DNA from: an uncultured Eubacteriales bacterium
Lineage (GTDB): Bacteria; Bacillota; Clostridia; Lachnospirales; CAZTAY01
Reading direction: 5' to 3'
Assembly: GCA_964611655.1 (NCBI GenBank)
Contig: CAZTAY010000016.1
Span: 1-27,383 of the forward strand
Length of the DNA stretch: 27,383 nt
The notes beneath the pieces are model-generated. The model was not told the DNA's origin. It ran no database searches and saw only the letters and a list, made by a program, of their open reading frames with translations. Positions 7,893 through 26,477 of the stretch are shown piece after piece. Position numbers and translations under genes: made by a program. The first letter of the stretch is position 1. The number at the start of each line of letters is the position of its first letter.

Positions 7893-9725
7893 ATGGGAGT
7901 TAACATGAAAGTTTTACCGGAAGAGCTGTTTCATAAAGTAACAAAGCCTGCAAGATACACAGGCGGAGAAATTAATATGGTTTCAAAAGATGAAGACGGA
8001 CTTATTAGATTTGCGCTCATGTTTCCAGACGTATATGAAGTTGGTATGAGTAACATTGGTATGCAAATTCTGTATTTTTATTTAAATGAAATGAAAGACG
8101 TGTACTGCGAACGCGTGTTTGCTCCCTGGGTGGATATGGAGAGTGAAATGCGTTCTTTTAATGTACCTTTGTTTTCATTAGAAACAAAGACTGATACAAA
8201 GGACTTTGACATTTTGGGATTTACTTTACAATATGAAATGAATTACACCAATATTATTAATATGCTTGACCTGTCCCAAATCCCCTTATACAGCAAAGAC
8301 AGAGGCGAGGAATATCCCCTTGTTATAGCAGGTGGACTTTGTGCTTATAACCCTGAACCATTAGCTGACTTTATTGACTTTTTTTATATTGGAGAAGGCG
8401 AGGAATTGCTCGCAGATGTTATGGAAGCATACAAGTCTCATAAATCTAAGGGTGGTACTAAAGAAGAATTTTTAGTAAGACTTCTGGACTTTAAGAATAT
8501 CTATGTTCCGAAGTTCTACGAACCAGTGTATGAAAACGACGGCAAGTTAAAAGAGTTAGTACGGACACAGCCTAGCGCACCTGCAAAAATTAAGAAAGCT
8601 TTTGTAAAAAACTTAAACGACTTTCCAGCACAGAAAAAGCAAATGGTTCCATTAATCGAGGTTGTGCAGGACAGAATTGCTGTTGAACTATTCAGAGGAT
8701 GCATAAGGGGTTGCAGATTCTGTCAAGCCGGATTTATAAACAGACCCAACAGAGAAAAAGATCCGATTCTGGTTGCGGATGCAATAAAAGATATTGAAAA
8801 GGAAACAGGTTATGAAGAGGTATCCTTGCTTTCACTTTCAACAAGTGATTATTCAGGTTTGTCTGAACTTCTTAATTGTATGAGTGATTGGAGAAGTGAA
8901 AAGAAGATTAACATTTCACTTCCATCTTTAAGAATAGATGCTTTTTCCTTAGAAATAATGGAGACTCTCGACAGTCAAAAGAAAATGAGCCTTACATTTG
9001 CTCCGGAAGCCGGTACTCAAAGAATGAGGGATATTATAAACAAAAATATCTCTGAAGAAGAAATTTTAGAAGGAATAAGGCAAGCTTATGATGGCGGATA
9101 TTTTAAAATTAAACTATACTTCATGGCAGGTTTGCCCCATGAAACAGAAGAAGACTTAAAAGGAATTTCAGAACTTTGTGTTAAAATTATGGATTTGTAT
9201 TATACCCTGCCAAAGGAAAAGAGAGGAAAGCTCTCTCTATCCGCTTCATGCTCGTGCTTTGTGCCAAAACCGCACACACCGTTTCAATGGGAAGCACAGG
9301 ATTTACCTATGAAGTACTTAGAAAAGCAGAAGAAAATAAAAGAATCTTTCCCTAAAAAGGTAAAGTACAGCTATCATGAAGCTTACCTAAGCTACCTTGA
9401 AGGGGTGTTGTCAAGGGGTGACAGGAGAGTTTCAAAAGCTATTGTACGAGCATTTGAATTGGGATGCAGGTTTGACGGATGGTCTGAACATTTTGATTTC
9501 GATAAATGGATGCAGGCATTTTCTGAATGTGATCTAGATCCTGATTTTTACTTAAAAGCTAAACAAACTGATGAAATTTTGCCTTGGGATCATATTGATT
9601 GTGGAGTAACTAAGGACTTTTTACTGCTTGAAAAGGCAAGGGCGGAAAAATGTGCTACAACACCTAATTGCCGAGAAAAATGTTCAAACTGTGGCCATTT
9701 CTGCATGTCAGGAGGAAAAGTGTGA
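7893..9725 (+). CDS. Radical SAM protein, TIGR03960-like (B12-binding-like N-domain plus radical SAM core)
   Basis: CxxxCxxC radical-SAM motif in FRGCIRGCRFCQAG, plus a C-terminal Cys cluster CREKCSNCGHFC. Conserved partner of the next gene. The start may instead be ATG 7905. Confidence 0.8.
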   Translation: MGVNMKVLPEELFHKVTKPARYTGGEINMVSKDEDGLIRFALMFPDVYEVGMSNIGMQILYFYLNEMKDVYCERVFAPWVDMESEMRSFNVPLFSLETKTDTKDFDILGFTLQYEMNYTNIINMLDLSQIPLYSKDRGEEYPLVIAGGLCAYNPEPLADFIDFFYIGEGEELLADVMEAYKSHKSKGGTKEEFLVRLLDFKNIYVPKFYEPVYENDGKLKELVRTQPSAPAKIKKAFVKNLNDFPAQKKQMVPLIEVVQDRIAVELFRGCIRGCRFCQAGFINRPNREKDPILVADAIKDIEKETGYEEVSLLSLSTSDYSGLSELLNCMSDWRSEKKINISLPSLRIDAFSLEIMETLDSQKKMSLTFAPEAGTQRMRDIINKNISEEEILEGIRQAYDGGYFKIKLYFMAGLPHETEEDLKGISELCVKIMDLYYTLPKEKRGKLSLSASCSCFVPKPHTPFQWEAQDLPMKYLEKQKKIKESFPKKVKYSYHEAYLSYLEGVLSRGDRRVSKAIVRAFELGCRFDGWSEHFDFDKWMQAFSECDLDPDFYLKAKQTDEILPWDHIDCGVTKDFLLLEKARAEKCATTPNCREKCSNCGHFCMSGGKV

Positions 9726-10384
9726 AACTAAGACTTAAATTTGAAAAAACAGGCAGACTTAAGTATATCGGGCATTTGGACTTGCTTAGATTATTTAACA
9801 GAGTTTTTAGAATGGCTCAAATCCCTGTGTCATTCTCTAATGGCTTTAATCCACATATGCTTTTGCATTTTGCCTCACCCCTTCCTCTTGGTGTTTCAAG
9901 CATAGCCGAATATTTAGATGTTGAAATTTATGAAGCAGTAAACCTTGAACAAATAATTTCAAATATTAATGCTCATGTTCCGAAAGGACTTAAAATAATA
10001 AAAGCGTTAAATGCTGACCATAGCAAAAAAGTTACGTCTATTGTGTCAGCAGGATTATATGAAATCCAAAAAAGAGAAAGTTTTAATAGTGAAATGATTG
10101 AAAGATACCTTTCTCAACCAGAAATATTAATTGAAAAGAAAACTAAAAAAAACAGCACTGTTTCTGACATCAAACCGCTAATTTATTCCATGTCAGTATC
10201 AGGAGGTATTTTAACAACAACTATTGCTACAGGTTCGGAGAAGAATTTAAAAGCAATTGTTTTACTTGAAAGCCTTTGTATATTCCAAAATATTGATTTT
10301 AAGGAACAAGACTATGAAATAACCAGAACAGAGCTATATTCTGGAACTACTCCTAATTTTTTAACATTGGATCAGGTGGAGTGA
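9722..10384 (+). CDS. TIGR03936/DUF2344 radical-SAM-linked protein. Start reassigned to GTG 9722; the supplied ORF begins at 9668.
   Basis: GGAGGA at 9711-9716 then GTG 9722, giving a 4-nt GTGA overlap with the upstream stop (translational coupling). Family signature KFEKTGRLKYIGHLDLLRLFNRVFRMAQIPV and NPHM. Confidence 0.75.
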   Translation: MKLRLKFEKTGRLKYIGHLDLLRLFNRVFRMAQIPVSFSNGFNPHMLLHFASPLPLGVSSIAEYLDVEIYEAVNLEQIISNINAHVPKGLKIIKALNADHSKKVTSIVSAGLYEIQKRESFNSEMIERYLSQPEILIEKKTKKNSTVSDIKPLIYSMSVSGGILTTTIATGSEKNLKAIVLLESLCIFQNIDFKEQDYEITRTELYSGTTPNFLTLDQVE

Positions 10385-10388
10385 AACT

Positions 10389-11780
10389 ATGGACATAGAA
10401 ATAATAATCGAAAACTCGCCATTTTACTTAAGGGGCGCTGTATTAGAGAACAATGCCCTAGCCGAACTCCATGTGTTAAATAAGGCTTCCATGTCGATTT
10501 TAGGTAATATTTATCTTGGAAGGGTAAAGGATATAAATAAAGGTATTGAGTCAGCCTTTGTTGATATAGGTTTGGAAAAGAATGCTTTTTTGTTTATTCA
10601 AAATAACATGCCTGTTAGAAAAGGGGATGAAATTTTAGTACAAATAGAAAAGGACGCCACAGGAGATAAGTCGCCAGTGGTATCAAGAAAAATTTCATTT
10701 CCTGGAAACAGTCTTGTGCTTTTTCTTAATCAAGAAAAAAAAGTTAATATTTCAACCAAGATTACGGATAAGGAAGAAAGAGAACGACTAATAAACGTTC
10801 TTGAGCCTGTTTTGCCTGAGAACTATGGACTAATTGTCAGAACTATTGCAGAAGGTAAAAACAGTGAAATATTAATAAATGAGTTACATGAAATAGTTTC
10901 AAATGCAGAATCAGCATTGAACGGATATAAATTCAAGAAGGCCCCTGCTCTTATACACAGTGCTCCCACATTTTGGAATAAGCTTATTATGGACACAAGC
11001 CCATTCCACATAAAGAAAATTTATGTCAATGATGAGGAAATTTTGAATTCAATTAATCAGCAAAAGTGGATTTCCGATAAGTCAATTTATAAACCAGGTG
11101 CAATTTTTTATGATTTCGGAATAGACAACAAGATAGAAAAATCATTGCGTCGAAGGGTTTGGCTAAACAGCGGAGGATTTATCGTAATTGACGAGACAGA
11201 AGCAATGACTGTGATAGACGTTAACACAGGCAAAGCAAAAGGCAAGAAAACACTTTCAAAAACCGCTTTTGAAATCAATAAGGAAGCCGCAAAAGAAATA
11301 ATATCACAAATACGCATACGCAACTTAAGCGGCATTATTGTGGTGGATTTTATTGATATGGAAGACAAAGAACTTGAAAACAGATTGATTCAAATATTAA
11401 CAGAAGAAGCAAAAAGAGACAGAAAAAAGACTGTGATTGTCGGTATGGCAGATTTAGGGCTTGCACTTATGACTAGAAAGAAAACCACAGAACCCCTTTC
11501 AAAAATACTTCAAGAGAACATAAATGACGTAAACGGGGGGAAAAAAGACCTGCCTTCATATGTGGCACTAAAGATTTATAACGAACTTGTGAAACTTACT
11601 ACACACACGATTTATGACTTATTTACCATTTCTGCAATTGATGAGGTTATTAAGGTGTTTCCAAAAGAAGCATTGTGGGAATTTGAAAAACGTAATATAA
11701 AGATTGAGTGGGAAAGAATTAAGCAATCAGATTGTATGAAAAATTGCTATGAAATAAGATATAAAAAAGCTTCAGAATAA
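10389..11780 (+). CDS. rng: Ribonuclease G/E family endoribonuclease
   Basis: S1-like N-terminus, and catalytic-domain motifs SGGFIVIDETEAMTVIDVNTGK and IIVVDFIDME. RNase G is the usual neighbour of the radical SAM/DUF2344 pair in Clostridia. Confidence 0.85.
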   Translation: MDIEIIIENSPFYLRGAVLENNALAELHVLNKASMSILGNIYLGRVKDINKGIESAFVDIGLEKNAFLFIQNNMPVRKGDEILVQIEKDATGDKSPVVSRKISFPGNSLVLFLNQEKKVNISTKITDKEERERLINVLEPVLPENYGLIVRTIAEGKNSEILINELHEIVSNAESALNGYKFKKAPALIHSAPTFWNKLIMDTSPFHIKKIYVNDEEILNSINQQKWISDKSIYKPGAIFYDFGIDNKIEKSLRRRVWLNSGGFIVIDETEAMTVIDVNTGKAKGKKTLSKTAFEINKEAAKEIISQIRIRNLSGIIVVDFIDMEDKELENRLIQILTEEAKRDRKKTVIVGMADLGLALMTRKKTTEPLSKILQENINDVNGGKKDLPSYVALKIYNELVKLTTHTIYDLFTISAIDEVIKVFPKEALWEFEKRNIKIEWERIKQSDCMKNCYEIRYKKASE

Positions 11781-11807
11781 AGTGTTAAAAAGAGCATAAA
11801 CTTAGGG

Positions 11808-11846
11808 TTTGGGAAACTTTTATTGAAAAGTTTCCCAAACGTTTTT
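11808..11846. terminator. Bidirectional intrinsic terminator between convergent rng and the recombinase gene
   Basis: Perfect 14-bp inverted repeat TTTGGGAAACTTTT-ATTG-AAAAGTTTCCCAAA (11808-11839), followed by CGTTTTT on the + strand. Confidence 0.65.
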
Positions 11847-13225
11847 CAAGTCATAATAAAGGTTAGAGTAAGGGATTCTTTATTAAAAATTATTTTACTA
11901 AATAACATGCGTAGTGCCAAATTTTTTTTATCTATTTCTATATCCTTAGATTTTATAATTTCAGAAAAAGTTTCAGGCAATCTTAAACTACAATTTTCCG
12001 TTGAGAGTAAAGAATCTTTTCTATTATCCAATTCAGATTGTAATACCTCTTTTTCTTTGATAAAGTGTATCTTTTTTTCTTTATATTCAGCCAAAGAATC
12101 TATACCTTCCAAGTATGCCAACTTAAGCCGTTCCAGCCTTTCATCAATTTTTTTAATATTTCTCAATAATCCATCGATTTTAACATCAATTTCATCAACG
12201 CTGATTTGACTAAACTCCGAAACAACAGTTGTGGGGATCATATTATCAAGTATATTTGAGATAAGTTCTTCTACTTTAGATACGCTAATATAATTTGAAT
12301 AAGCACATTTACCGGTGCTGTTACCTCCACATCTAAATGCGTGATTACCTTTTGCATCAGATGAAAAGTTAAGTGAGGACCCGCAGCTATGGCATTTAAT
12401 CAAACCAGAAAGCCAATGCTTATAAGTCAGAGGTGGCTTAGATTTTGGTGTTATTTTTTTTGATGTTATTATACTAACTTTTTTAAATGTTTCACTATCT
12501 ATTATTGGTGTATGTACACCTTTATATAAGATACCGTCATATTCAATATTTCCGGCATAGGTTTGTTTGGTTAGTATGCGTTTAATATCATTTGAGCAAA
12601 AGGGTTTACCGCTTCTTTTTTTAATACCCAATTGATTTAGATTTACCGCAACACTATGATAGTATGGAGTTTTAATAAAAGAATCAAATACCAATCTTAC
12701 TATTTTAGCTTCCTCTTCCACAACCTCCATAACTCCGTTTTTCTTTATATAACCAAAAGGAGGCGGTACAAGATGAATTCCTTGACTAACCTTAAAGGTC
12801 ATCCCACGTTTGACTGCTTTGGAGAGCTTTCTTGAATGCATCTCGTTAAGTGCCCCAAGCATTGCATCGGTAATAAGTGATGAATCATCATCTAAAGTAG
12901 GTTCAGTAGCTGAAATTAATTCAACATTATTGCGTTTTAAGGATGATTTATAAGCAATGGACTCTTCGAGGTTTCTTGCAAATCGTGAAGAATCAAAAAC
13001 AAGCACAGCATTAAAATCACCTTTAATGCTATCTTCAATCATCTGCATAAAAGCAGGCCTTTTTCTTGCAGATCTTCCCGATAAGCCTTCGTCGGAAGGG
13101 GATTGATTAGGGCGGAATATTAAGAATATAAATTTTAAGAACTGAATGTTGCTCGAAGTGAAACTGCTATTAAATTTGAATAAAATAATAGGAGTTCGAC
13201 ATTTGCAAATGTATCCTGCAAACAC
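11846..13225 (-). CDS. Large serine recombinase (resolvase catalytic domain, recombinase domain, zinc ribbon, coiled coil). GTG start. Catalytic N-terminus degenerate; possibly inactive or a pseudogene.
   Basis: DEGLSG-x-RKRPAF and FDSSRFARN (DEGxSG...RPxF...DRLxR-like). Recombinase domain (EEEAKIVRLVF...NDIKRILTKQTYAG). Cys4 zinc ribbon (CHSCGSS...FRCGG...GKC). The canonical N-terminal (A)IYxRVS(T) nucleophile motif is replaced by AGYICKC. Confidence 0.75.
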   Translation of the reverse strand: MFAGYICKCRTPIILFKFNSSFTSSNIQFLKFIFLIFRPNQSPSDEGLSGRSARKRPAFMQMIEDSIKGDFNAVLVFDSSRFARNLEESIAYKSSLKRNNVELISATEPTLDDDSSLITDAMLGALNEMHSRKLSKAVKRGMTFKVSQGIHLVPPPFGYIKKNGVMEVVEEEAKIVRLVFDSFIKTPYYHSVAVNLNQLGIKKRSGKPFCSNDIKRILTKQTYAGNIEYDGILYKGVHTPIIDSETFKKVSIITSKKITPKSKPPLTYKHWLSGLIKCHSCGSSLNFSSDAKGNHAFRCGGNSTGKCAYSNYISVSKVEELISNILDNMIPTTVVSEFSQISVDEIDVKIDGLLRNIKKIDERLERLKLAYLEGIDSLAEYKEKKIHFIKEKEVLQSELDNRKDSLLSTENCSLRLPETFSEIIKSKDIEIDKKNLALRMLFSKIIFNKESLTLTFIMT

Positions 13226-13251
13226 CGAACTTTTAATTGTAAATGCTGTAT

Positions 13252-13313
13252 AGTTGTTAATAATTTAAACTTTCGTATGAAACGCCTTGTGGATTGTTAT
13301 ATTTCTAACAACT
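13252..13313. repeat. Imperfect inverted repeats between the abrB stop and the recombinase start (AGTTGTTA ... TAACAACT; inner TTGTTA-N6-TAACAA)
   Basis: Read directly: 8-bp arms at 13252-13259 and 13306-13313; a 6-6-6 palindrome at 13294-13311. Either a weak AT-rich abrB terminator or a relic recombination site. Confidence 0.3.
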
Positions 13314-13317
13314 CACA

Positions 13318-13581
13318 TTAACCTTGTATGTTAAAACCAGCTAACTTTGCCATTTCTAAAATAGAATTCTTTGAAACTTTCTTGCCTTTGAATTCAATTA
13401 AATCTTCCATGCTTCCAGTGAAAATATCTGCAGGTTCATATTTCTTTAAAATAACCAATTCATCATCAACAAAAATCTCTAACGCATCTTTTTCATTAAT
13501 ATTTAAAATCCTTCTAAGTTCAATAGGTAAAACTACTCTTCCAAGTTCATCAACTTTTCTGACAATACCTGTAGATTTCAT
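13318..13581 (-). CDS. abrB: Transition-state regulator AbrB (SpoVT/AbrB swapped-hairpin family). Start taken at MKSTGIVRK.
   Basis: N-terminus MKSTGIVRKVDELGRVVLPIELRRILNINEKDALEIFVDDELVILKKY is near-identical to the AbrB N-domain. GGAGG RBS 7 nt upstream of this ATG; the supplied ORF extends 11 codons further without an RBS. Confidence 0.85.
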   Translation of the reverse strand: MKSTGIVRKVDELGRVVLPIELRRILNINEKDALEIFVDDELVILKKYEPADIFTGSMEDLIEFKGKKVSKNSILEMAKLAGFNIQG

Positions 13582-13800
13582 GGCAACCTCCATTAATAAT
13601 ACAAATAACAACAAATATTTACATATTTAAAGTAATTAATACAAAGGATAACATAATTTACAATAAAAGTCAATAATGCAATTACTAAAAGTTGACATTT
13701 GTAAACAAAAAAATACAAATTGCAACTAAAGGGCACAAATTCGTAATATATTTGTATGACATGCATATAAATGTATGTATACAACCTAGGAGGTTTTAAA
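13582..13800. promoter_or_regulatory. AT-rich divergent promoter region for abrB (-) and spmAB (+)
   Basis: 219-bp non-coding AT-rich tract. TTGACA at 13691-13696 with a TA-rich -10 candidate downstream on the + strand. No specific operator identified. Confidence 0.3.
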
Positions 13801-14382
13801 ATGCTCAATCTCATTTGGGGGTTAATGATCTTATTTGGAATTGCCTTTTCTGCTTTTACAGGGAAGATTCCGCAAGTTACAACAGCCGTAATAGAATCCG
13901 CAAAAGAATCAGTTAATATTTGTATTACAATGCTTGGCATAGTTGCAATGTGGTCAGGTTTGATGGGCATAGCTGAAAAATCAGGCATGGTATTAGGATT
14001 AACTAATAAAATGTCACCACTTCTTAGTTTTTTATTTCCTAATATACCAAAAACACACAAGGCTAGAAAGTATATAGCAACTAATTTTATAGCAAACTTT
14101 TTAGGGCTTGGATGGGCTGCTACACCTGCCGGTCTTAAAGCAATGGAAGAGCTACAGAAAATAAACAAGAATAAAAAAATTGCAAGTAATGAAATGTGTG
14201 TGTTTTTAATAATTAATATGTCTTCAGTGCAATTGGTTTCTGTTAATTTACTAAGCTATAGAATGAATTACAATTCAGCAAACCCTGCCGAGATTATAGG
14301 GCCTTGTTTATTGGCAACGGCATTTACAACTGCGCTGGCAATTCTTATATGCAAAATCATGGAAAGAAGATGTGACAAATGA
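13801..14382 (+). CDS. spmA: Spore maturation protein A (nucleoside-recognition domain membrane protein)
   Basis: AGGAGG at 13789-13794 then ATG 13801 (MLNLIWG...). Multi-pass membrane protein with Gate/nucleoside-recognition motifs. Immediately followed by spmB with a 4-nt overlap. Confidence 0.85.
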   Translation: MLNLIWGLMILFGIAFSAFTGKIPQVTTAVIESAKESVNICITMLGIVAMWSGLMGIAEKSGMVLGLTNKMSPLLSFLFPNIPKTHKARKYIATNFIANFLGLGWAATPAGLKAMEELQKINKNKKIASNEMCVFLIINMSSVQLVSVNLLSYRMNYNSANPAEIIGPCLLATAFTTALAILICKIMERRCDK

Positions 14383-20706: not shown

Positions 20707-21189
20707 CTATTTCTTTATAACAGGAATCCAAATTTCACTCTTGTAAGTTGGAGATGTAATATCACCATCCGAATACCACTCTATTTCAGGTGTTTTAGCG
20801 TGTTCGTAACCAGATGTTGGAAGCCATTCCGAGTAAATACGATTCCATAGTTTATGAAGCGCATCAGGCATAGCACCAATTGACTCGAAGATTGCCCAAG
20901 TAGAACCAGGAATGTCTAGGGATAATAAGTGTTCGGGGCAAGTTTTTGTTGTTGCTGTACCAATCCAGTAATCAAACCCATTGTTATACATGTTTGCGCA
21001 AACGCCTAGAAGACCAGATGGTTCTCTGTTTGAATATGAACATATATCTTCTGATTGTTCTTTTGAAAGGTTCTGCCACATCTGAGGAATTTTTGAATGG
21101 TTTTCTTCATTTTCTAATGATATAAACTCCTTTATACCTACAATAGTGAACCCTTCTTTGTTTTCAATTCTGTAATTCATAGCTATCAC
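20707..21189 (-). CDS. GyrI-like small-molecule-binding domain protein (AraC/BmrR effector-binding domain fold), stand-alone
   Basis: GFTIVGI...IPQMW...YWIGTAT...IPGSTWAIFESIG...IYSEWLPTSGYEHAKTPEIEWY...EIWIPV matches the GyrI-like duplicated fold. GGAG RBS. Same strand as the WYL pair, 71 nt downstream, with no hairpin between them. Confidence 0.7.
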   Translation of the reverse strand: MIAMNYRIENKEGFTIVGIKEFISLENEENHSKIPQMWQNLSKEQSEDICSYSNREPSGLLGVCANMYNNGFDYWIGTATTKTCPEHLLSLDIPGSTWAIFESIGAMPDALHKLWNRIYSEWLPTSGYEHAKTPEIEWYSDGDITSPTYKSEIWIPVIKK

Positions 21190-21260
21190 TCCTATATTTT
21201 ATTTTGTAATGCTTTTTCTCTGGCTTTAGAGTATAGGTTTAAATTGCTTTTAGTATATCA

Positions 21261-22223
21261 TTAAACTAATAAAACTTGCTTTTCTATCCTCTCACGGATT
21301 TGATCTAAAAAATCCTTGTGACCCAAAACTTTTACTACAGGTCCAAAGCTAAGTATCCTGATGAGCAGTTCTGACTCATCCCTGATATCGTAAAATATTC
21401 TGCAGATGTAGCTATCTGTAGCTTCGTCGTATTCAGTTTGTTTTTCCATAGAAGCAAATTGCAACATACAACGCTCTAATGCATTGCGGTATGGTAATAT
21501 CTGAAGAACTATAGGCTCTTTAAAAGTGTTTTTCTCTATAACATTTCTATCTGTTTCTATAGAAAAGAAATTTTGTGACACATCCACAGACTTTATTCTT
21601 GATAAATTCAGTACCACCTTCCCCATTCGGTTACCTTTAGTGTTGACAGCAATTAGCCGAAATTTATCATCTCGCTCCGAATAGTTTAGTTTTACTGGCA
21701 TAAAGCAGTTGTTGGAGCGTTTGCCTTTTCCACTGTCATACTCAATTCTTAACTCCCTTTTGTACCTTATGGCTGATATAATGGTTCTGAAATTATTTTT
21801 ATACTGTTGGCTGTCGTACCTGTCTCCATCTGCTGCAGCATCAAAACAATGGAAATCGCTATTTTCGTACAATGTCTCTACATCTTCTAATAAGTCATTA
21901 AGTCGTTTTATTTGTGATTCATCAAGAAAAAGAGTAATTCTTTTATCATTTAGTAATGATTTTAACCATGACTTCTGTAGAGTTGTTATAGGTGTTTTAA
22001 GGTTATTTGAATCAAGCCTATTCAATAAATTCCATTCGCTGGACTGTAAGTATGGCATAATAAAGAATGAGCTTTCAGAAAAAGCGTTAGAGTTTATGAT
22101 TTCTGTAATTTCATCATAGGTTAGCGGATTTTTTTGTGCCGCTTCCAAAACCTTTCGTATTGCTCTGAAGTAACAGCTATAAATTTCCGAAAACAACTCC
22201 AAATTAATCTGCCCCCTCTTCAC
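21261..22223 (-). CDS. HTH-WYL-WCX transcription regulator paralog B (PafC/YobV-like architecture)
   Basis: N-terminal helix-turn-helix-like segment (LTYDEITEIIN). WYL-type domain (RELRIEYDSGKGKRSNNCFMPVKLNYSERDDKFRLIAV...LSRIKSVDV). C-terminal WCX-like tail (IRILSFGPVVKVLGHKDFLDQIRERI). GTG 22223 overlaps the upstream gene by 20 nt; an alternative TTG 22202 with an AGAGGGGG RBS gives a 1-nt gap. Confidence 0.65.
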   Translation of the reverse strand: MKRGQINLELFSEIYSCYFRAIRKVLEAAQKNPLTYDEITEIINSNAFSESSFFIMPYLQSSEWNLLNRLDSNNLKTPITTLQKSWLKSLLNDKRITLFLDESQIKRLNDLLEDVETLYENSDFHCFDAAADGDRYDSQQYKNNFRTIISAIRYKRELRIEYDSGKGKRSNNCFMPVKLNYSERDDKFRLIAVNTKGNRMGKVVLNLSRIKSVDVSQNFFSIETDRNVIEKNTFKEPIVLQILPYRNALERCMLQFASMEKQTEYDEATDSYICRIFYDIRDESELLIRILSFGPVVKVLGHKDFLDQIRERIEKQVLLV

Positions 22224-23445
22224 AATACATTTTGTGCATATTAGCTATATCACTATAGAATCTTTCAATAACGACGCTGTTTGTACCTTCAAGAGCAAGG
22301 ATTCTTCCTGTAAATGTCTTAATCCATGGTGTCATCTCATTTGTGTCATAGCATTCCTTTGTGTATAGGAAAGTATTGGTATCTAGTTTTATAAGGCTTC
22401 CGCCTCGTCCTTCCCTATTGATTCTTTCTATAACGAAATGTTCATTTTCTTCATTAATAAATAACTTCATAGACAGCAATTCAATTCTGTTTCTACCGCC
22501 AAAACCCACGCCCCAGACCTTATCAATGTTTGTGTTCAGTTTATTACGTAGATTAATAGCGTCAGGTGACTCTGCCAAGATTTTAACGGATTTAATATAG
22601 TCAATCCTAAAACAAGAAAAGCGGTTTCTTTTTATGTTATGTACACAGACATATCTTCTGCCAGTAGTTGCGGATAGAAAAATCTTAAGAGGAATACCTT
22701 CATAATAAGTAGTAGTATTTGTGCGATTGCTGGCGTTTTCAAAGCTAATGGTTCTGTTTTGCCTTATTGCAGACAATAAATCAAATAAAATTCCGTCCTC
22801 CAGTGTATGTACTATGTAGTGGTGCTTAAATGAAAATATATCATTCACTAAATCGTTATTATCCAGGATAAAGCTTCCAACCTCACCGAAAGGAGCCGAC
22901 TCCATAAAAAATTTTACTGCATCCGGCAGCAAAGGAAAATCTTTTCCTAGATTTTCAAAATAAAGGCTTGAAAGGGCGTAGAGAATTGATTTACCATGTT
23001 TTTTGTTAGTCAATATTCCCTCAGCAACATACTCAATACATTTCAATCTAACGGTTTGCACATCAAATATCTTTTCGCTTTTGAGACAGATAATTTCAGT
23101 TAAATTTGCTACAGACAAATAAGAACCGTCTGACAGAGAATCAATTAAATAAAAATGCAGCATAATATCGTTTGAGGTAAAGCTTTTGGATTTCCATGCT
23201 GCGTATAATGGATTTTGGCTAATATTTGCCGAGTCAAGAGAAATATTTGTTTTCTTGCCACTCGATGAATATTCCCATCTTATAAACTCTCCAAGATAGG
23301 ATTCAATTCTTCTTTTTTCGTTGTCATATGTACGGAGGGATTTGCTCTTGAAATCTCCACGGGATTTAAAACCATAAATATAAAAATCTCGCATATAATC
23401 CCTTATTTTATTAAAGTTTTTAATTAACTCAGAAAAAGCAGCCAT
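22204..23445 (-). CDS. HTH-WYL-WCX transcription regulator paralog A, with an about 130-aa insertion between the HTH and WYL domains
   Basis: N-terminal DeoR-like recognition helix (KSLRTYDNEKRRIESYL). WYL-type domain (IPLKIFLSATTGRRYVCVHNIKRNRFSCFRIDYIKSVKIL). WCX-like C-terminus (IKTFTGRILALEGTNSVVIERF). AAGGTGA RBS. Divergent from rtcB. Confidence 0.6.
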   Translation of the reverse strand: MAAFSELIKNFNKIRDYMRDFYIYGFKSRGDFKSKSLRTYDNEKRRIESYLGEFIRWEYSSSGKKTNISLDSANISQNPLYAAWKSKSFTSNDIMLHFYLIDSLSDGSYLSVANLTEIICLKSEKIFDVQTVRLKCIEYVAEGILTNKKHGKSILYALSSLYFENLGKDFPLLPDAVKFFMESAPFGEVGSFILDNNDLVNDIFSFKHHYIVHTLEDGILFDLLSAIRQNRTISFENASNRTNTTTYYEGIPLKIFLSATTGRRYVCVHNIKRNRFSCFRIDYIKSVKILAESPDAINLRNKLNTNIDKVWGVGFGGRNRIELLSMKLFINEENEHFVIERINREGRGGSLIKLDTNTFLYTKECYDTNEMTPWIKTFTGRILALEGTNSVVIERFYSDIANMHKMYCEEGAD

Positions 23446-23560
23446 AGTATCACCTTACTTTATTTTATACCAATACTTTCCTCTTCGCAAACTTTTTTAA
23501 ATGAACCGTTTTTAAAATAATGATAGACTATATTTAACCTAAAAGTAAGGAGTTGATTGT

Positions 23561-24793
23561 ATGTTTGTTATCTCAAACGAAAAAACAAAAGTACCAATAA
23601 AAATATGGTTACAGGATGAAAGCAAGGTGGAAAACTCTTGTTTGGAGCAGGCGTATAATCTGTCTAATCTGCCATTTCTACATAAATGGGTGTCCCTGAT
23701 GCCAGACACTCATACAGGAATGGGAATGCCCATAGGCGGAATTATTGCAACAGAAGGTGTGATTATCCCTAATGCAGTTGGAGTTGACATAGGTTGTGGA
23801 ATGGGTTTCATGGGAACAGATATCAGGGTTTCTGATATAAAAGATATTAAAACAGGCAACGGAAGCTTTATCCAAGCTATTGTGGGCGATATATTAAGAA
23901 ATATTCCCGTTGGTTTTAATCATCACAAACAAGCCAAAGACTGCTTGACACTTGATATGGCAAAGAATGAAATGAATAAATACGAGAACAACGCTGAATT
24001 GATTAGTGAAATGGAAGCTGGCTATTTTCAAGTTGGCACATTAGGTGGCGGAAATCATTTTATTGAGTTGCAGGAGGATGACGAAGGCTATTTGGGAATT
24101 ATGCTACACTCCGGCAGTCGACACTTTGGAAAAAAGATTTGTGATTTATTTCAGCACAAAGCAAAAGCTCTGAACCAAAGATGGTTTTCAGAAGTTCCCG
24201 ATCATTACCGTTTGGCTTTCCTGCCTGTAGATACTGACGAGGGAAGGCAGTATATAAATTGGATGAATCTTGCTCTTGATTTTGCTGCAGAAAACAGACA
24301 AAAAATGATGTTAGCTGTAAAAGAAATTCTAAACAGATATATTACAAAGTTCACAGATATAAAATATTCGTATACCCTAGAAATCAACTGTCATCATAAT
24401 TATGCTGCAATGGAACATCATTACGGAAAGAATGTTTGGGTTCACCGTAAGGGTGCAATCAGAGCGAGAAAGGGTGACATGGGTATAATTCCCGGTGCAA
24501 TGGGATCATACAGCTATATTGTAGAAGGTCTGGGGAATGAGATGAGTTTTCATTCCTCATCACATGGTGCTGGAAGACTATACTCAAGAACAGCAGCAAT
24601 GGCTAACTTTTCAACAGAGGAAGTAATGCTTGACCTAAAAGAAAGTGGTGTTGTGCTAGGTAAGCACAACAAAAAAGACGTTGCAGATGAAAGTCGTTTC
24701 GCATACAAAAATATAGATGAAGTTATGGAAAACCAGAAGGATTTGGTTAAACCTATTAAGCGTTTGAAAACAATTGGAGTGGTTAAAGGATAA
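23561..24793 (+). CDS. rtcB: RNA-splicing ligase RtcB (3'-phosphate/5'-OH RNA ligase)
   Basis: Metal and GTP-binding motifs MPDTHTGMGMPIGG, GVDIGCGMG, GGGNHFIE, HRKGA and HGAGR. 410 aa (E. coli-length RtcB). AAGGAG RBS. No rtcA adjacent. Confidence 0.9.
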   Translation: MFVISNEKTKVPIKIWLQDESKVENSCLEQAYNLSNLPFLHKWVSLMPDTHTGMGMPIGGIIATEGVIIPNAVGVDIGCGMGFMGTDIRVSDIKDIKTGNGSFIQAIVGDILRNIPVGFNHHKQAKDCLTLDMAKNEMNKYENNAELISEMEAGYFQVGTLGGGNHFIELQEDDEGYLGIMLHSGSRHFGKKICDLFQHKAKALNQRWFSEVPDHYRLAFLPVDTDEGRQYINWMNLALDFAAENRQKMMLAVKEILNRYITKFTDIKYSYTLEINCHHNYAAMEHHYGKNVWVHRKGAIRARKGDMGIIPGAMGSYSYIVEGLGNEMSFHSSSHGAGRLYSRTAAMANFSTEEVMLDLKESGVVLGKHNKKDVADESRFAYKNIDEVMENQKDLVKPIKRLKTIGVVKG

Positions 24794-25047: not shown

Positions 25048-25382
25048 ATTCCAAGCGAGAATATGAAGGGAAAGTCTGGCTAGCTTGTGTGACTTGCAGG
25101 CAGCAACGAGAATTTTGCCAGCATTAAGGGGGATATCGTATAAAACTTTGATTCCTATTACTGTTAAAACTTGTATTTGAGTTAGAAACCCCGATATGTC
25201 GAATTTTTTTCTATACAGTAACCATGGCTGATTATAGAAAATTGACCGACAATTGTATGTTTTGAGCACTTGAATACTTGGACACTAGCCGGAAACAAAA
25301 TGGTATACTGAACCCATAATCCGCAAAAGAATTGTGGACTTTCCCTGTTGATTCTCAAGTGTCATGAATGGAGATGAAAAAA

Positions 25383-26477
25383 ATGAAGGTTATCATTACA
25401 GAAAATGAAAGAGGATTATTATTCAAAAACGGCAGTTTTCTCCGTATGCTTAAACCTGGCAAACACATAGTTTGGAGCATTCTTGGTGAAAGTGTTAAAA
25501 TAAGTAAAATTAATGGTATTGTTAAAATTGAAGACATTGATAATAATATTTTATTAAAAGAAAAAGAATTTGAAAATTCGATTGTAACTATCGATGTTCC
25601 TGACGGATATTTTGCCATTAGGTATGAAGATGGAAGGGTGGCAGAAACCCTTTCAACAGGTTCATACTGTATTTGGAATATCCTACGCAAGAGTACATTC
25701 CGATTAATTGATTTAACAAAGCCTGACATAACAGAGCTTGGCTCAAAAGACTTATCGGCTATTCCTCTCAAACATTACATAAGGGTGGAAGTTCCAAGCG
25801 GTTTTATGGGTTTACTGTACTTTGACGGTTCTTTTCAGCGAACACTTGAAAACGGTACGTATTTCTTCTGGAATGGAAGTGTTAAGGTAGAATACCAACT
25901 TGTGGAAATGCGTGTTCAGCAAATCGACATATCTGGTCAGGAGATTCTTACGGCAGATAAAGTAAGTTTGCGTATAAACTTCGTTTGCAGCTATAAAATA
26001 ACTGATCCACTTCGCATTCTAACAGAAATTAAGGACTACAAAATTCAGATACATGTTTTAACGCAACTTATTCTTAGGGAATATGTTGGGAAATACCGTT
26101 TTGATGAGCTTTTGGAGCAAAAAGAAAATATCGCTGCATTTATCCTAGAAAAGCTTAAAGAAAAACAGGATGGACTGTATGTTGAGTTTTTTGATAGTGG
26201 ATTGAAGGACATTGTTCTTCCGGGAGAAATTCGTGACATTATGAATACTGTGTTGGTAGCTGAAAAGAAGGCACAGGCAAATGTAATAACTCGCCGTGAG
26301 GAGGTTGCGTCAACCAGAAGCTTGCTTAATACTGCAAAGTTGATGGAAGAAAACAAAACACTCTTCAAACTAAAAGAACTTGAATACCTTGAAAAGATTT
26401 GTGATAAAGTGGGCAATATTTCAGTGGGTAGCGGTAATTTGTTGGGACAACTTAGCGATATAATTGCTGTTAAGTAA
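25383..26477 (+). CDS. SPFH/band-7 (slipin-like) protein with a triplicated N-terminal beta-hairpin motif and no transmembrane segment
   Basis: GGAGA then ATG 25383 (MKVIITENERG); the supplied ORF starts at 25368. Three tandem repeats of about 55 aa (G..G..F.R.L..G.Y..WN pattern) are followed by an SPFH core (DKVSLRINFVCSYKITDP...REYVGKYRFDELL...VEFFDSGLKDIVLPGEIRDIM...AEKKAQAN). Confidence 0.7.
   Translation: MKVIITENERGLLFKNGSFLRMLKPGKHIVWSILGESVKISKINGIVKIEDIDNNILLKEKEFENSIVTIDVPDGYFAIRYEDGRVAETLSTGSYCIWNILRKSTFRLIDLTKPDITELGSKDLSAIPLKHYIRVEVPSGFMGLLYFDGSFQRTLENGTYFFWNGSVKVEYQLVEMRVQQIDISGQEILTADKVSLRINFVCSYKITDPLRILTEIKDYKIQIHVLTQLILREYVGKYRFDELLEQKENIAAFILEKLKEKQDGLYVEFFDSGLKDIVLPGEIRDIMNTVLVAEKKAQANVITRREEVASTRSLLNTAKLMEENKTLFKLKELEYLEKICDKVGNISVGSGNLLGQLSDIIAVK

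What the first reader, a model, noticed from the sequence alone, without database searches (positions are those of the whole stretch)
11846..13313. Lone large serine recombinase with catalytic Ser/Arg motif replaced (YxRVS to YICKC) between rng and abrB
The ORF is intact for 459 aa. It has recognisable DEGxSG, RPxF and DxxxRFxRN catalytic-domain motifs, a recombinase domain, a Cys4 zinc ribbon and a coiled coil. Its first about 45 residues are an AT-driven Phe/Ile/Leu/Lys-rich stretch in which the nucleophilic Ser and the Arg of the (A)IYxRVST motif are both Cys.

- No mobile-element cargo flanks it: rng lies on one side and abrB/spmAB on the other.
- It probably rides on the abrB transcript; only an AT-rich inverted repeat separates the two genes.
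- Possibilities: a relic of a sporulation-excised (SpoIVCA-type) or integrative element whose cargo has been lost; a domesticated DNA-binding derivative; or a very recent inactivation.

The inverted repeats at 13252-13313 could be a remnant att half-site.
Basis: partly seen in the sequence, partly recalled or inferred. Interest (0 to 1): 0.55.

Follow-up and report, generated by a model that had tools for sequence, protein, structure and literature searches.

The report
Truncated, dead phage-integrase gene remnant
This is the leftover 3' nine-tenths of a phage-type large serine integrase gene whose first ~44 codons, including the catalytic serine, are missing. They were cut off and replaced by unrelated intergenic DNA, not mutated to cysteines, so this is an ordinary mobile-element relic.

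Summary
The 459-codon ORF at 11846-13225 (-) is real, and so are its Resolvase, Recombinase and Zn-ribbon domains. The headline claim, that YxRVS mutated to YICKC, is not supported.

- **Where homology starts.** Homology to the family begins abruptly at D45 (window 13093). This holds for Pfam, a 114-member family HMM and the listed best hits among 528 phage integrase records.
- **What lies upstream.** A frameshift-tolerant profile search of the 130-200 nt upstream scores at noise level: 14 bits against a null of 12.6±2.3, with controls at 91-94 bits.
- **The start codon.** The GTG start sits inside a 17-bp terminator-like hairpin just downstream of abrB. NCBI called the gene from M60.
- **No missing piece nearby.** The missing N-terminal coding piece is nowhere else in the 27-kb contig.
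- **State of the retained part.** Its 415 codons are not decayed, so the truncation is recent, or less likely the remainder is under selection.
- **Relatives.** The closest ones (47-51% identity over the retained part) are integrases of prophages and mini-elements. The five loci examined lie in or beside a split murA; nothing of that kind flanks this copy.
- **Limits.** The host has no close relative in any collection, so no empty-site comparison was possible.

Verdict: a 5'-truncated, catalytically dead integrase relic. Low interest.

The parts
11846..13093 (-). Retained, family-homologous part of the large serine recombinase gene (aa 45-459 plus the stop at 11846-11848).
   Evidence: The family HMM aligns hmm 42-460 to aa 44-456 at 493 bits. 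Alignment A1 agrees. The listed best phage integrase hits start at aa 44-45.
12779..13096 (-). Remainder of the catalytic (Resolvase) domain, aa 44-149. It carries DEGLSG, RPAF and DSSRFARN but lacks strand 1 and helix A with the Ser nucleophile.
   Evidence: Pfam PF00239 matches profile 38-143 of 145. Identity to the nearest clade is 74%, the same as clade members show to each other.
12473..12718 (-). Recombinase domain (PF07508), aa 170-251.
12257..12415 (-). Zinc-ribbon domain (PF13408), aa 271-323, with C278, C281, C299 and C307.
11849..12256 (-). Coiled-coil and C-terminal region, aa 324-459.
   Evidence: It aligns to the coiled-coil and C-terminal parts of the A118 integrase and SPbeta SprA/YokA structures. 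The C-terminus is complete relative to homologs.
13094..13225 (-). A 44-codon in-frame extension that is not homologous to the family. It is most likely a fortuitous open frame through intergenic DNA.
   Evidence: All 11 conserved columns differ. The frameshift-tolerant profile score is at noise level. GC3 is 0.36 against 0.24 for the rest of the ORF. There is no match elsewhere in the window or in the metagenome and viral collections.
13193..13231 (-). Terminator-like hairpin (17 pairs, 3 of them G-U on this strand) followed by CCTATTATTT. It is the probable abrB terminator and contains the GTG 'start' at 13223-13225.
   Evidence: Consensus scan. In the RNA fold the hairpin is present in both the MFE and the centroid structure, and the region has z = -2.55.
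13046..13048 (-). ATG of Met60. This is the start used in the public NCBI gene call (400-aa product P0001).
   Evidence: P0001 is 100% identical and 400 aa long, on a 27383-base contig.
11807..11840 (+). Perfect 15-bp hairpin with a GTTTTT tail, the rng terminator. It lies 5 nt from the recombinase stop codon.
13252..13313 (.). Imperfect inverted repeat (17-nt arms, 82% complementary, 28-nt spacer) in the abrB 3' UTR. There is no evidence that it is an att site.
   Evidence: There is no second copy in the window. The MFE fold uses a different local hairpin directly after the abrB stop.
13318..13581 (-). AbrB-type transcription regulator gene, the upstream neighbour on the same strand.
   Evidence: Pfam MazE_antitoxin / AbrB domain. 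NCBIfam AbrB-family domain.
10389..11780 (+). rng (Rne/Rng family ribonuclease), the convergent neighbour. It is intact.
   Evidence: The homolog P0124 covers 98% of it.

Best explanation
The locus is a 5'-truncated relic of a large serine integrase gene. A prophage or small integrative element once carried a full-length gene of about 460 codons. A deletion or other illegitimate rearrangement removed the rest of the element together with the promoter and codons 1 to about 44. Those codons encode the YxRMSTDKQ nucleophile strand and helix A. The cut end at about 13093/13094 became joined to about 100 bp of unrelated AT-rich DNA that follows the abrB terminator.

The reading frame happens to stay open back to a GTG inside that terminator hairpin, which makes the ORF look full length. 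The product, if any is made (from GTG or from Met60), lacks the Ser nucleophile and the first catalytic Arg, so it cannot cut or rejoin DNA. With no promoter of its own and a terminator upstream, it is probably barely expressed.

Shown here: the sharp homology boundary, the absence of the N-terminal coding piece from the contig, the hairpin, the mobile-element contexts of the relatives, and the lack of decay. Inferred: the deletion history, the recency of the event, and the lack of expression and function.
For: **Sharp boundary.**
- The Pfam Resolvase match starts at profile position 38 of 145.
- The family HMM leaves positions 1-41 unmatched.
- 11 of 11 conserved columns are wrong before D45, and 4 of 83 after it.
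- The listed best hits among 528 phage integrase records start at aa 44-45.
- DNA identity to homologs jumps from 0.17-0.45 upstream of 13091 to 0.56-0.81 downstream.

**No hidden motif.**
- The three frames of 13060-13330 lack the motif.
- tblastn of homolog N-termini finds only noise plus the DEGxSG match at 13093-13076. A regex search for [YF]xRxS[TS]xxQ was also run over all six frames, but the printed output was cut, so its result could not be read in full.
- The frameshift-tolerant profile DP scores 14.1 bits against a null of 12.6±2.3. The version anchored at D45 scores -1.0 against a null of 1.5±3.0. Positive controls score 91-94 bits.

**Start codon and expression signals.**
- The GTG start lies in a 17-pair terminator-like hairpin downstream of abrB.
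- No sigma-70-like site on the - strand lies between 13230 and 13050.
- The public gene call starts at M60.

**Relatives are mobile-element integrases.**
- P0010 and P0014 sit at prophage ends next to CI-like repressors.
- P0006 sits in a roughly 3.6-kb element that splits murA.
- P0008 and P0004 abut murA fragments.

**No decay, so the event is recent.**
- Identity to an outgroup is 0.371, against 0.375±0.011 for active clade members.
- About 4% of point substitutions would create a stop codon. An intact 415-codon frame therefore implies less than roughly 2-3% neutral divergence since truncation.
Against: - The 415-codon frame is fully intact and all family-invariant residues after D45 are kept. 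This would also fit selection on the remainder.
- No element cargo, att scar or split target gene remains nearby to document the deletion.
- The relatives sit next to murA, and this copy does not.
- No related genome exists for an occupied-site versus empty-site comparison. The best Rng relative is 42% identical among 5.8 billion proteins, and the best in GTDB representatives is 39%.
- The contig comes from a draft assembly, and the junction could not be checked against reads.
- The terminator and the lack of a promoter are consensus predictions, not measurements.
Confidence: 0.75

Rival explanations
1. The gene is a domesticated, catalytically dead derivative. A protein starting at Met60 (or at the GTG) is made and kept by selection as a DNA-binding protein. 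It retains the alpha-E region, the recombinase domain, the zinc ribbon and the coiled coil. It might act as an att-site-binding decoy or regulator, for example by interfering with integration of related phages.
For: - The 415 codons are intact with no frameshift or stop, and the conserved-column deviation is within the family range.
- The Zn-ribbon cysteines and the DNA-binding domains are complete.
- NCBI calls a 400-aa product.
Against: - The now useless catalytic remainder is as conserved as in active enzymes, 74% against 75%. That is expected for a recent truncation, not for long-term domestication.
- There is a terminator-like hairpin upstream and no promoter-like site.
- No orthologous truncated copies are known. 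Its 90%-identity cluster has a single member, and the closest relative is about 50% identical and full length.
Confidence: 0.1
2. The junction is an assembly artefact. The join at about 13094 is a chimeric contig join in a draft or metagenome-derived assembly. In the real genome the integrase is full length inside an element located elsewhere.
For: - The homology break is very sharp and the downstream sequence is undecayed.
- The window is a whole 27-kb contig.
- The organism is seen only once in public data.
Against: - The fragment is embedded between two well-formed terminators of intact convergent host genes. Host sequence continues for more than 10 kb on both sides. A simple chimera would need two mis-joins 1.3 kb apart.
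- No repeat was found at the junction that could mislead an assembler.
Confidence: 0.08
3. The gene is split and can be rejoined. The 5' piece with its promoter lies elsewhere in the genome, and a programmed inversion or excision restores a full-length gene, for example during sporulation.
For: - Relatives belong to gene-splitting elements.
- The remainder is undecayed.
- The host appears to be a spore former, given its abrB and spmAB-like genes.
Against: - No copy of the N-terminal coding piece and no repeat of the junction sequence occurs in the 27-kb contig.
- In the relatives the crossover site lies outside the integrase gene, at its 3' end or upstream of it, never inside it.
- A recombinase that must first be assembled by its own activity has no source of enzyme.
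Confidence: 0.04
4. The N-terminus is homologous but mutated, with Ser to Cys and Arg to Cys, giving an altered or inactive active site within a full-length protein that starts at the GTG.
For: - The ORF length (459 aa) equals the family length of 451-466 aa.
- 'YICKC' lies within 2-4 residues of where YxRMS would be expected.
- An 8-mer, AATGTCGA, is shared with the M-S-T codons of the homolog in L001.
Against: - No conserved column of the N-terminal 41 profile positions is matched.
- The profile score, with or without frameshifts, is at noise level.
- The shared 8-mer lies in the terminator stem and is in a different frame.
- An open frame of 44 codons arises by chance in roughly 5-15% of cases, given 3-8% stop-codon density in the three frames of 13094-13317.
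Confidence: 0.01

Closest known systems
murA-targeting clade of large serine integrases from uncultured Lachnospirales-like Clostridia (P0002-P0020; not characterised experimentally as far as I could find)
   Same: These are the best sequence relatives: 47% mean and 51% maximum identity over aa 45-459, with 49-52% over local BLASTP alignments. They have the same domain order and the same length of about 460 aa. The catalytic remainder is 74% identical.
   Different: They are full length with YxRMSTDKQ. The five whose loci were examined sit at the ends of prophages or mini-elements that split murA at the HPGFP|TDLQ codons. The window copy lacks the first 44 codons, any cargo and any murA fragment.
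SPbeta SprA (YokA) and SpoIVCA/CisA-type sporulation-linked large serine recombinases
   Same: The domain architecture is the same. The SprA/YokA structures (9dxh, 9dxd) are the best full-length solved-structure matches, aligning over aa 39-449. CisA-annotated phage integrases are also hit. The relatives likewise interrupt a host gene.
   Different: Similarity is distant (E about 1e-9). SprA and SpoIVCA are intact enzymes inside elements flanked by the two halves of spsM or sigK (PMC4191935, PMC5499854). Here the flanking genes rng and abrB are intact and the enzyme lacks its nucleophile.
Listeria phage A118 integrase (PDB 4kis, 5udo, 6dnw) and TP901-1 integrase (3bvp)
   Same: The recombinase, zinc-ribbon and coiled-coil part aligns over aa 156-457. 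The catalytic domain aligns from aa 41-44 onward.
   Different: About 25% identity. In those enzymes the region N-terminal to the aligned part carries the catalytic Ser. The corresponding window residues do not align.
Degraded integrase genes of cryptic or defective prophages (a general phenomenon, from my own knowledge)
   Same: It is a mobile-element recombinase fragment stranded between housekeeping genes after loss of the element.
   Different: This one is unusually clean. It shows a single sharp 5' break, no internal stops or frameshifts, and no other remnant of the element.

Membership tests
Large serine recombinase / serine integrase | N-terminal strand with the Ser nucleophile and Arg in the (Y/F)xRxS(T/S)xxQ motif. 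| tested here: not met
   Pfam profile positions 1-37 and family HMM positions 1-41 are unmatched. The motif is absent from all frames locally, and tblastn finds no copy elsewhere in the contig. The frameshift-tolerant score is at noise level.
Large serine recombinase / serine integrase | Rest of the catalytic domain (DEGxSG, RPxF, DxxRxxR, helix E). | tested here: met
   PF00239 matches aa 44-149 with E = 1e-15. Invariant residues D45, G47, S49, G50, R51, R56, F59, D78, R81 and R84 are present.
Large serine recombinase / serine integrase | Recombinase domain (PF07508) followed by a Cys4 zinc ribbon (PF13408). | tested here: met
   PF07508 matches aa 170-251 and PF13408 matches aa 271-323. C278, C281, C299 and C307 are invariant.
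Large serine recombinase / serine integrase | Coiled-coil motif inserted in the zinc-ribbon domain. | tested here: inconclusive
   The region aligns to the coiled-coil part of the A118 integrase and SprA. It is the least conserved part, at 25% identity to the clade. No coiled-coil prediction or structure model was made.
Large serine recombinase / serine integrase | Residence in a mobile element bounded by attL and attR. | tested here: not met
   The neighbours are intact rng and abrB with their terminators. There is no cargo and no repeat of the flanking sequences.
Large serine recombinase / serine integrase | Catalysis of attP x attB recombination. | not testable with these tools
   This needs an in vitro or in vivo assay. 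Absence of the nucleophile predicts no activity.
SpoIVCA / SprA-type sporulation-excised gene-intervening element | An element that interrupts a host gene, with the two halves flanking it. | tested here: not met
   rng is full length, with a homolog covering 98% of it. abrB is a complete AbrB-type ORF. No split-gene fragments were found, including murA.
SpoIVCA / SprA-type sporulation-excised gene-intervening element | A cognate recombination directionality factor and sporulation-specific expression. | not tested
   No small-ORF candidate was examined, and there are no expression data.
murA-targeting integrase clade (defined here from the homolog loci) | Closest sequence relationship to clade members. 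| tested here: met
   The top hits P0002-P0020 have E values of 1e-122 to 1e-103. Identity to an outgroup equals that of clade members.
murA-targeting integrase clade (defined here from the homolog loci) | A gene that abuts a murA fragment at the HPGFP|TDLQ crossover. | tested here: not met
   The window has no PF00275 fragment (tblastn) and no match to the crossover coding pattern.

The most novel reading that the evidence does not exclude
The truncated protein, starting at Met60, is made at a low level by read-through of the abrB terminator. It is retained because it is a catalytically dead protein that still binds att sites. It could form non-productive complexes with incoming related integrases or occupy their murA target. 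The host would thereby be protected from lysogenisation by murA-splitting phages, as a 'fossil integrase as decoy'.
Probability: 0.06. Interest if true: 0.5.

Novelty: new member of a known kind. Interest (0 to 1): 0.13.

Why it matters
It matters little for biology. It is one more stranded fragment of a mobile-element recombinase.

Its practical value is as a caution. In AT-rich genomes an ORF can keep a family-typical length by reading through non-coding DNA, and a short look-alike such as 'YICKC' can mimic a mutated active site. For annotation, the locus should be flagged as a 5'-truncated pseudogene or partial gene, not as a 400- or 459-aa recombinase.

The more interesting by-product is the clade it belongs to. 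The intact members examined sit in or beside a split murA, at a conserved codon block. I did not find this target described in the literature I could search.

Tried and rejected
- **Alternative frames or starts that restore the motif.** None exist.
- **The missing 5' piece elsewhere in the contig.** tblastn with 11 homolog N-termini gave only noise. A motif regex was run over all six frames, but the printed output was cut, so its result could not be read in full.
- **Residual, frameshifted homology.** A MAFFT DNA alignment showed a shared 8-mer, AATGTCGA, at about the right place. I followed this up with a purpose-written frameshift-tolerant profile alignment and 500 Markov nulls. The result was not significant (the first attempt, timed out).
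- **Empty-site versus occupied-site comparison.** This was impossible.
  - The GTDB-representative scan with Rng gave at most 39% identity and no synteny.
  - The 5.8-billion-protein search gave at most 42% identity.
  - Exact look-ups of AbrB, P0001 and Rng found no record.
  - The cluster look-up showed singletons.
- **Searches for the junction 22-mer and the hairpin 24-mer.** There were no hits in JGI metagenomes. The junction 22-mer also had no hit in IMG/VR.
- **Closer viral relatives.** None were found; the best was 32% identical.
- **A remnant att site or murA fragment near the relic.** None was found.
- **Rfam on 11500-14000.** Only sub-threshold chance hits appeared.
- **dN/dS by domain.** This is not feasible because the nearest relative is about 50% identical, so synonymous sites are saturated. 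I substituted a conserved-column test and a relative-rate test.
- **Literature on murA as a serine-integrase target.** Nothing relevant was found.
Full report
**What is there.** The window is a complete 27,383-base contig of an AT-rich chromosome with about 33% GC locally. Its genes are murG, gyrB, gyrA, a C39-like peptidase, a phosphoesterase, the TIGR03960/TIGR03936 radical-SAM pair and rng on the + strand. Then come the ORF in question and an AbrB-type gene on the - strand. After them lie two Gate-domain genes consistent with spmA/spmB, a decarboxylase and further housekeeping genes. The ORF at 11846-13225 (-) is 459 codons from a GTG. Pfam finds Resolvase (aa 44-149), Recombinase (170-251) and Zn_ribbon_recom (271-323). 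The DEGLSG, RPAF and DSSRFARN motifs and four invariant cysteines are present.

**The N-terminus is not a mutated active site.**
- The Pfam Resolvase match begins at profile position 38 of 145.
- Every solved-structure match to the catalytic domain begins at aa 39-44.
- The listed best hits among 528 phage integrase records begin at aa 44-45.
- I aligned 114 full-length homologs (35-52% identity, 440-500 aa). All of them start with xVxYxRMSTDKQENSIESQ...Y(x)DEGISG. An HMM built without the window aligns its positions 42-460 to window aa 44-456 at 493 bits and leaves positions 1-41 unmatched.
- Of the columns that are at least 90% conserved, the window differs at 11 of 11 before D45 and at 4 of 83 after it. 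Those four are all conservative changes: L/I, F/Y, H/Y and K/N.
- No other frame of 13060-13330 encodes the motif.
- tblastn with 11 homolog N-termini found only noise elsewhere in the contig. A six-frame regex was also run, but its result could not be read in full because the printed output was cut.
- At the DNA level, identity to five homolog genes is 0.17-0.45 upstream of 13091 and 0.56-0.81 downstream.

That DNA alignment showed an 8-mer, AATGTCGA, shared with the Met-Ser-Thr codons of the homolog in L001, at roughly the right distance. I therefore wrote a frameshift-tolerant profile-to-DNA alignment and compared it with 500 Markov-simulated sequences. The observed score was 14.1 bits against a null of 12.6±2.3, with 23% of nulls at least as high. 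The version anchored at D45 scored -1.0 against a null of 1.5±3.0. Genuine homologs score 91-94 bits. 'YICKC' is therefore a chance resemblance. The break lies at 13093/13094, give or take a few bases.

**What the first 44 codons are.** On the - strand, 87 nt after the abrB stop, there is a 17-pair hairpin (13231-13193). Its three imperfect positions are all G-U pairs on this strand, and it is followed by CCTATTATTT. It is picked up as terminator-like and is present in both the MFE and centroid folds of the abrB 3' region, which has z = -2.55. The GTG 'start' at 13225 lies inside its 5' arm.

The roughly 100 nt between the hairpin and D45 have no match elsewhere in the window, and the 22-mer at the junction has none in JGI metagenomes or IMG/VR. 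The 44 codons have GC3 of 0.36, against 0.24 for the rest of the ORF and 0.28±0.04 for host genes. The three frames of 13094-13317 carry 2-6 stops per 74 codons, so a 44-codon open run is not rare, at roughly 5-15%. No sigma-70-like site lies on the - strand between the hairpin and Met60. The public annotation starts the gene at Met60 (P0001, 400 aa). I infer that the extension is a fortuitous open frame through intergenic DNA and that the fragment has no expression signals of its own.

**What the gene was.** The nearest relatives have local BLASTP identities of 49-52% and average 47% identity, up to 51%, over aa 45-459. They are integrases of mobile elements.
- P0010 and P0014 lie at the ends of prophages, next to CI-like repressors, ParB, HNH and YopX genes.
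- P0006 lies in a roughly 3.6-kb element, with two Band_7 genes as cargo, between the two halves of a split gene.
- P0008 and P0004 abut fragments of the same gene.
- That gene is murA. The fragments match MurA models over positions 1-304 and 302/307-416. The junctions fall in the HPGFP|TDLQ codons.

The family is thus a clade of murA-targeting large serine integrases. The crossover site lies outside the integrase gene, usually within a few dozen bases of its stop codon. The window copy has none of this. It has no murA fragment, no match to the crossover coding pattern and no phage or cargo genes. Its stop codon is 5 nt from the perfect 15-bp rng terminator. The fragment sits exactly between the terminators of two intact convergent host transcription units.

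**How old, and is it used?** There is no sign of decay in the retained part.
- The deviation at conserved columns is 4.8%, within the family range (mean 2.5%, sd 2.8%, maximum 13%).
- Identity to an outgroup of 36 more distant members is 0.371, against 0.375±0.011 for 17 intact clade members, so there is no rate acceleration.
- The remainder of the catalytic domain, which is useless without the nucleophile, is 74% identical to the clade. Clade members are 75% identical to each other.
- About 4% of point substitutions in this ORF would create a stop. With a modest indel rate, an intact 415-codon frame is unlikely beyond about 2-3% neutral divergence.

The simplest reading is a recent truncation. 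Long-standing domestication as a DNA-binding protein is weakened by the conserved catalytic remainder, but it cannot be excluded.

**What could not be done.** The host has no close relative anywhere I could search. The best Rng homolog is 42% identical among 5.8 billion proteins. The best in GTDB species representatives is 39%, with no synteny. Exact-sequence look-ups found no record. Empty-site comparisons, dN/dS and a read-level check of the junction were therefore impossible. An assembly chimera remains a minor possibility, although it would need two mis-joins 1.3 kb apart inside otherwise continuous host sequence.

**Verdict.** This is a 5'-truncated, catalytically dead relic of a large serine integrase, with confidence of about 0.75. 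The rivals are:
- a retained DNA-binding derivative (0.10);
- an assembly artefact (0.08);
- a split gene that can be rejoined (0.04);

The locus fails the defining test of an active serine recombinase, the nucleophile motif, and also the context test, since there is no element and no att sites. It meets the domain tests for the rest of the protein. It is an ordinary kind of object, a stranded integrase fragment, in an unusually clean state. Interest is low.

Noticed in passing
L001:9350-14326; L086:8001-13944; L087:207-2515; L088:8001-9759; L003:11378-11430: The five closest intact relatives whose loci were examined sit in or beside a split murA gene (UDP-N-acetylglucosamine 1-carboxyvinyltransferase). 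The break falls at the conserved HPGFP|TDLQ codons, about model position 304-306 of 416-419. These elements are prophages in L003, L086 and L088. In L001 the element is a roughly 3.6-kb mini-element whose called genes, apart from the integrase and a 48-aa ORF, are two Band_7/SPFH genes. I found no description of murA as a serine-integrase target in the papers I searched. Whether murA is restored by regulated excision is an open question.
   Followed up: partly
L086:8001-13944: One murA appears to be interrupted twice. A fragment at 9420-10043 follows the P0008 integrase. A second 515-aa large serine recombinase (11854-13401), with amidophosphoribosyltransferase-like and TfoX_C genes, lies before another murA fragment at 13588-13944. 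This suggests two elements in tandem or nested in one target gene.
   Followed up: no
window 1-27383: The host organism has no close relative in any collection searched. The best Rng homolog is 42% identical among 5.8 billion proteins and 39% in GTDB representatives. Each window protein looked up is a singleton cluster. This looks like a deep, so far singly sampled lineage of spore-forming Clostridia, with its nearest named hits in Anaerotignum and the Lachnospirales.
   Followed up: partly
window 13196-13203 (- strand): The 8-mer AATGTCGA matches the Met-Ser-Thr codons of the homolog integrase in L001. It lies about 106 nt upstream of D45, where 96-102 nt would be expected, but in another frame and inside the terminator stem. 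The frameshift-tolerant test puts it within noise, but it is the kind of coincidence that invites over-reading.
   Followed up: yes
window 13094-13125 (- strand): A locally G+C-rich patch, CCGCCCTAATCAATCCCCTTCC, lies directly at the truncation junction in otherwise AT-rich DNA. Its origin is unknown, and it has no exact match in the JGI metagenome or IMG/VR collections.
   Followed up: partly
window 20707-24793: The cluster contains a Cass2/GyrI-like effector-binding protein (20707-21189, -) and two consecutive WYL-domain proteins (21261-22223 and 22204-23445, -). These are divergent from an RtcB RNA ligase gene (23561-24793, +). It looks like an Rtc RNA-repair module with paired WYL regulators.
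   Followed up: no
window 25368-26477: A Band_7/SPFH gene lies 12 kb from the relic. Band_7 genes are the main cargo of the L001 mini-element and also occur near the L088 prophage. This is probably coincidence, and the similarity between them was not checked.
   Followed up: no
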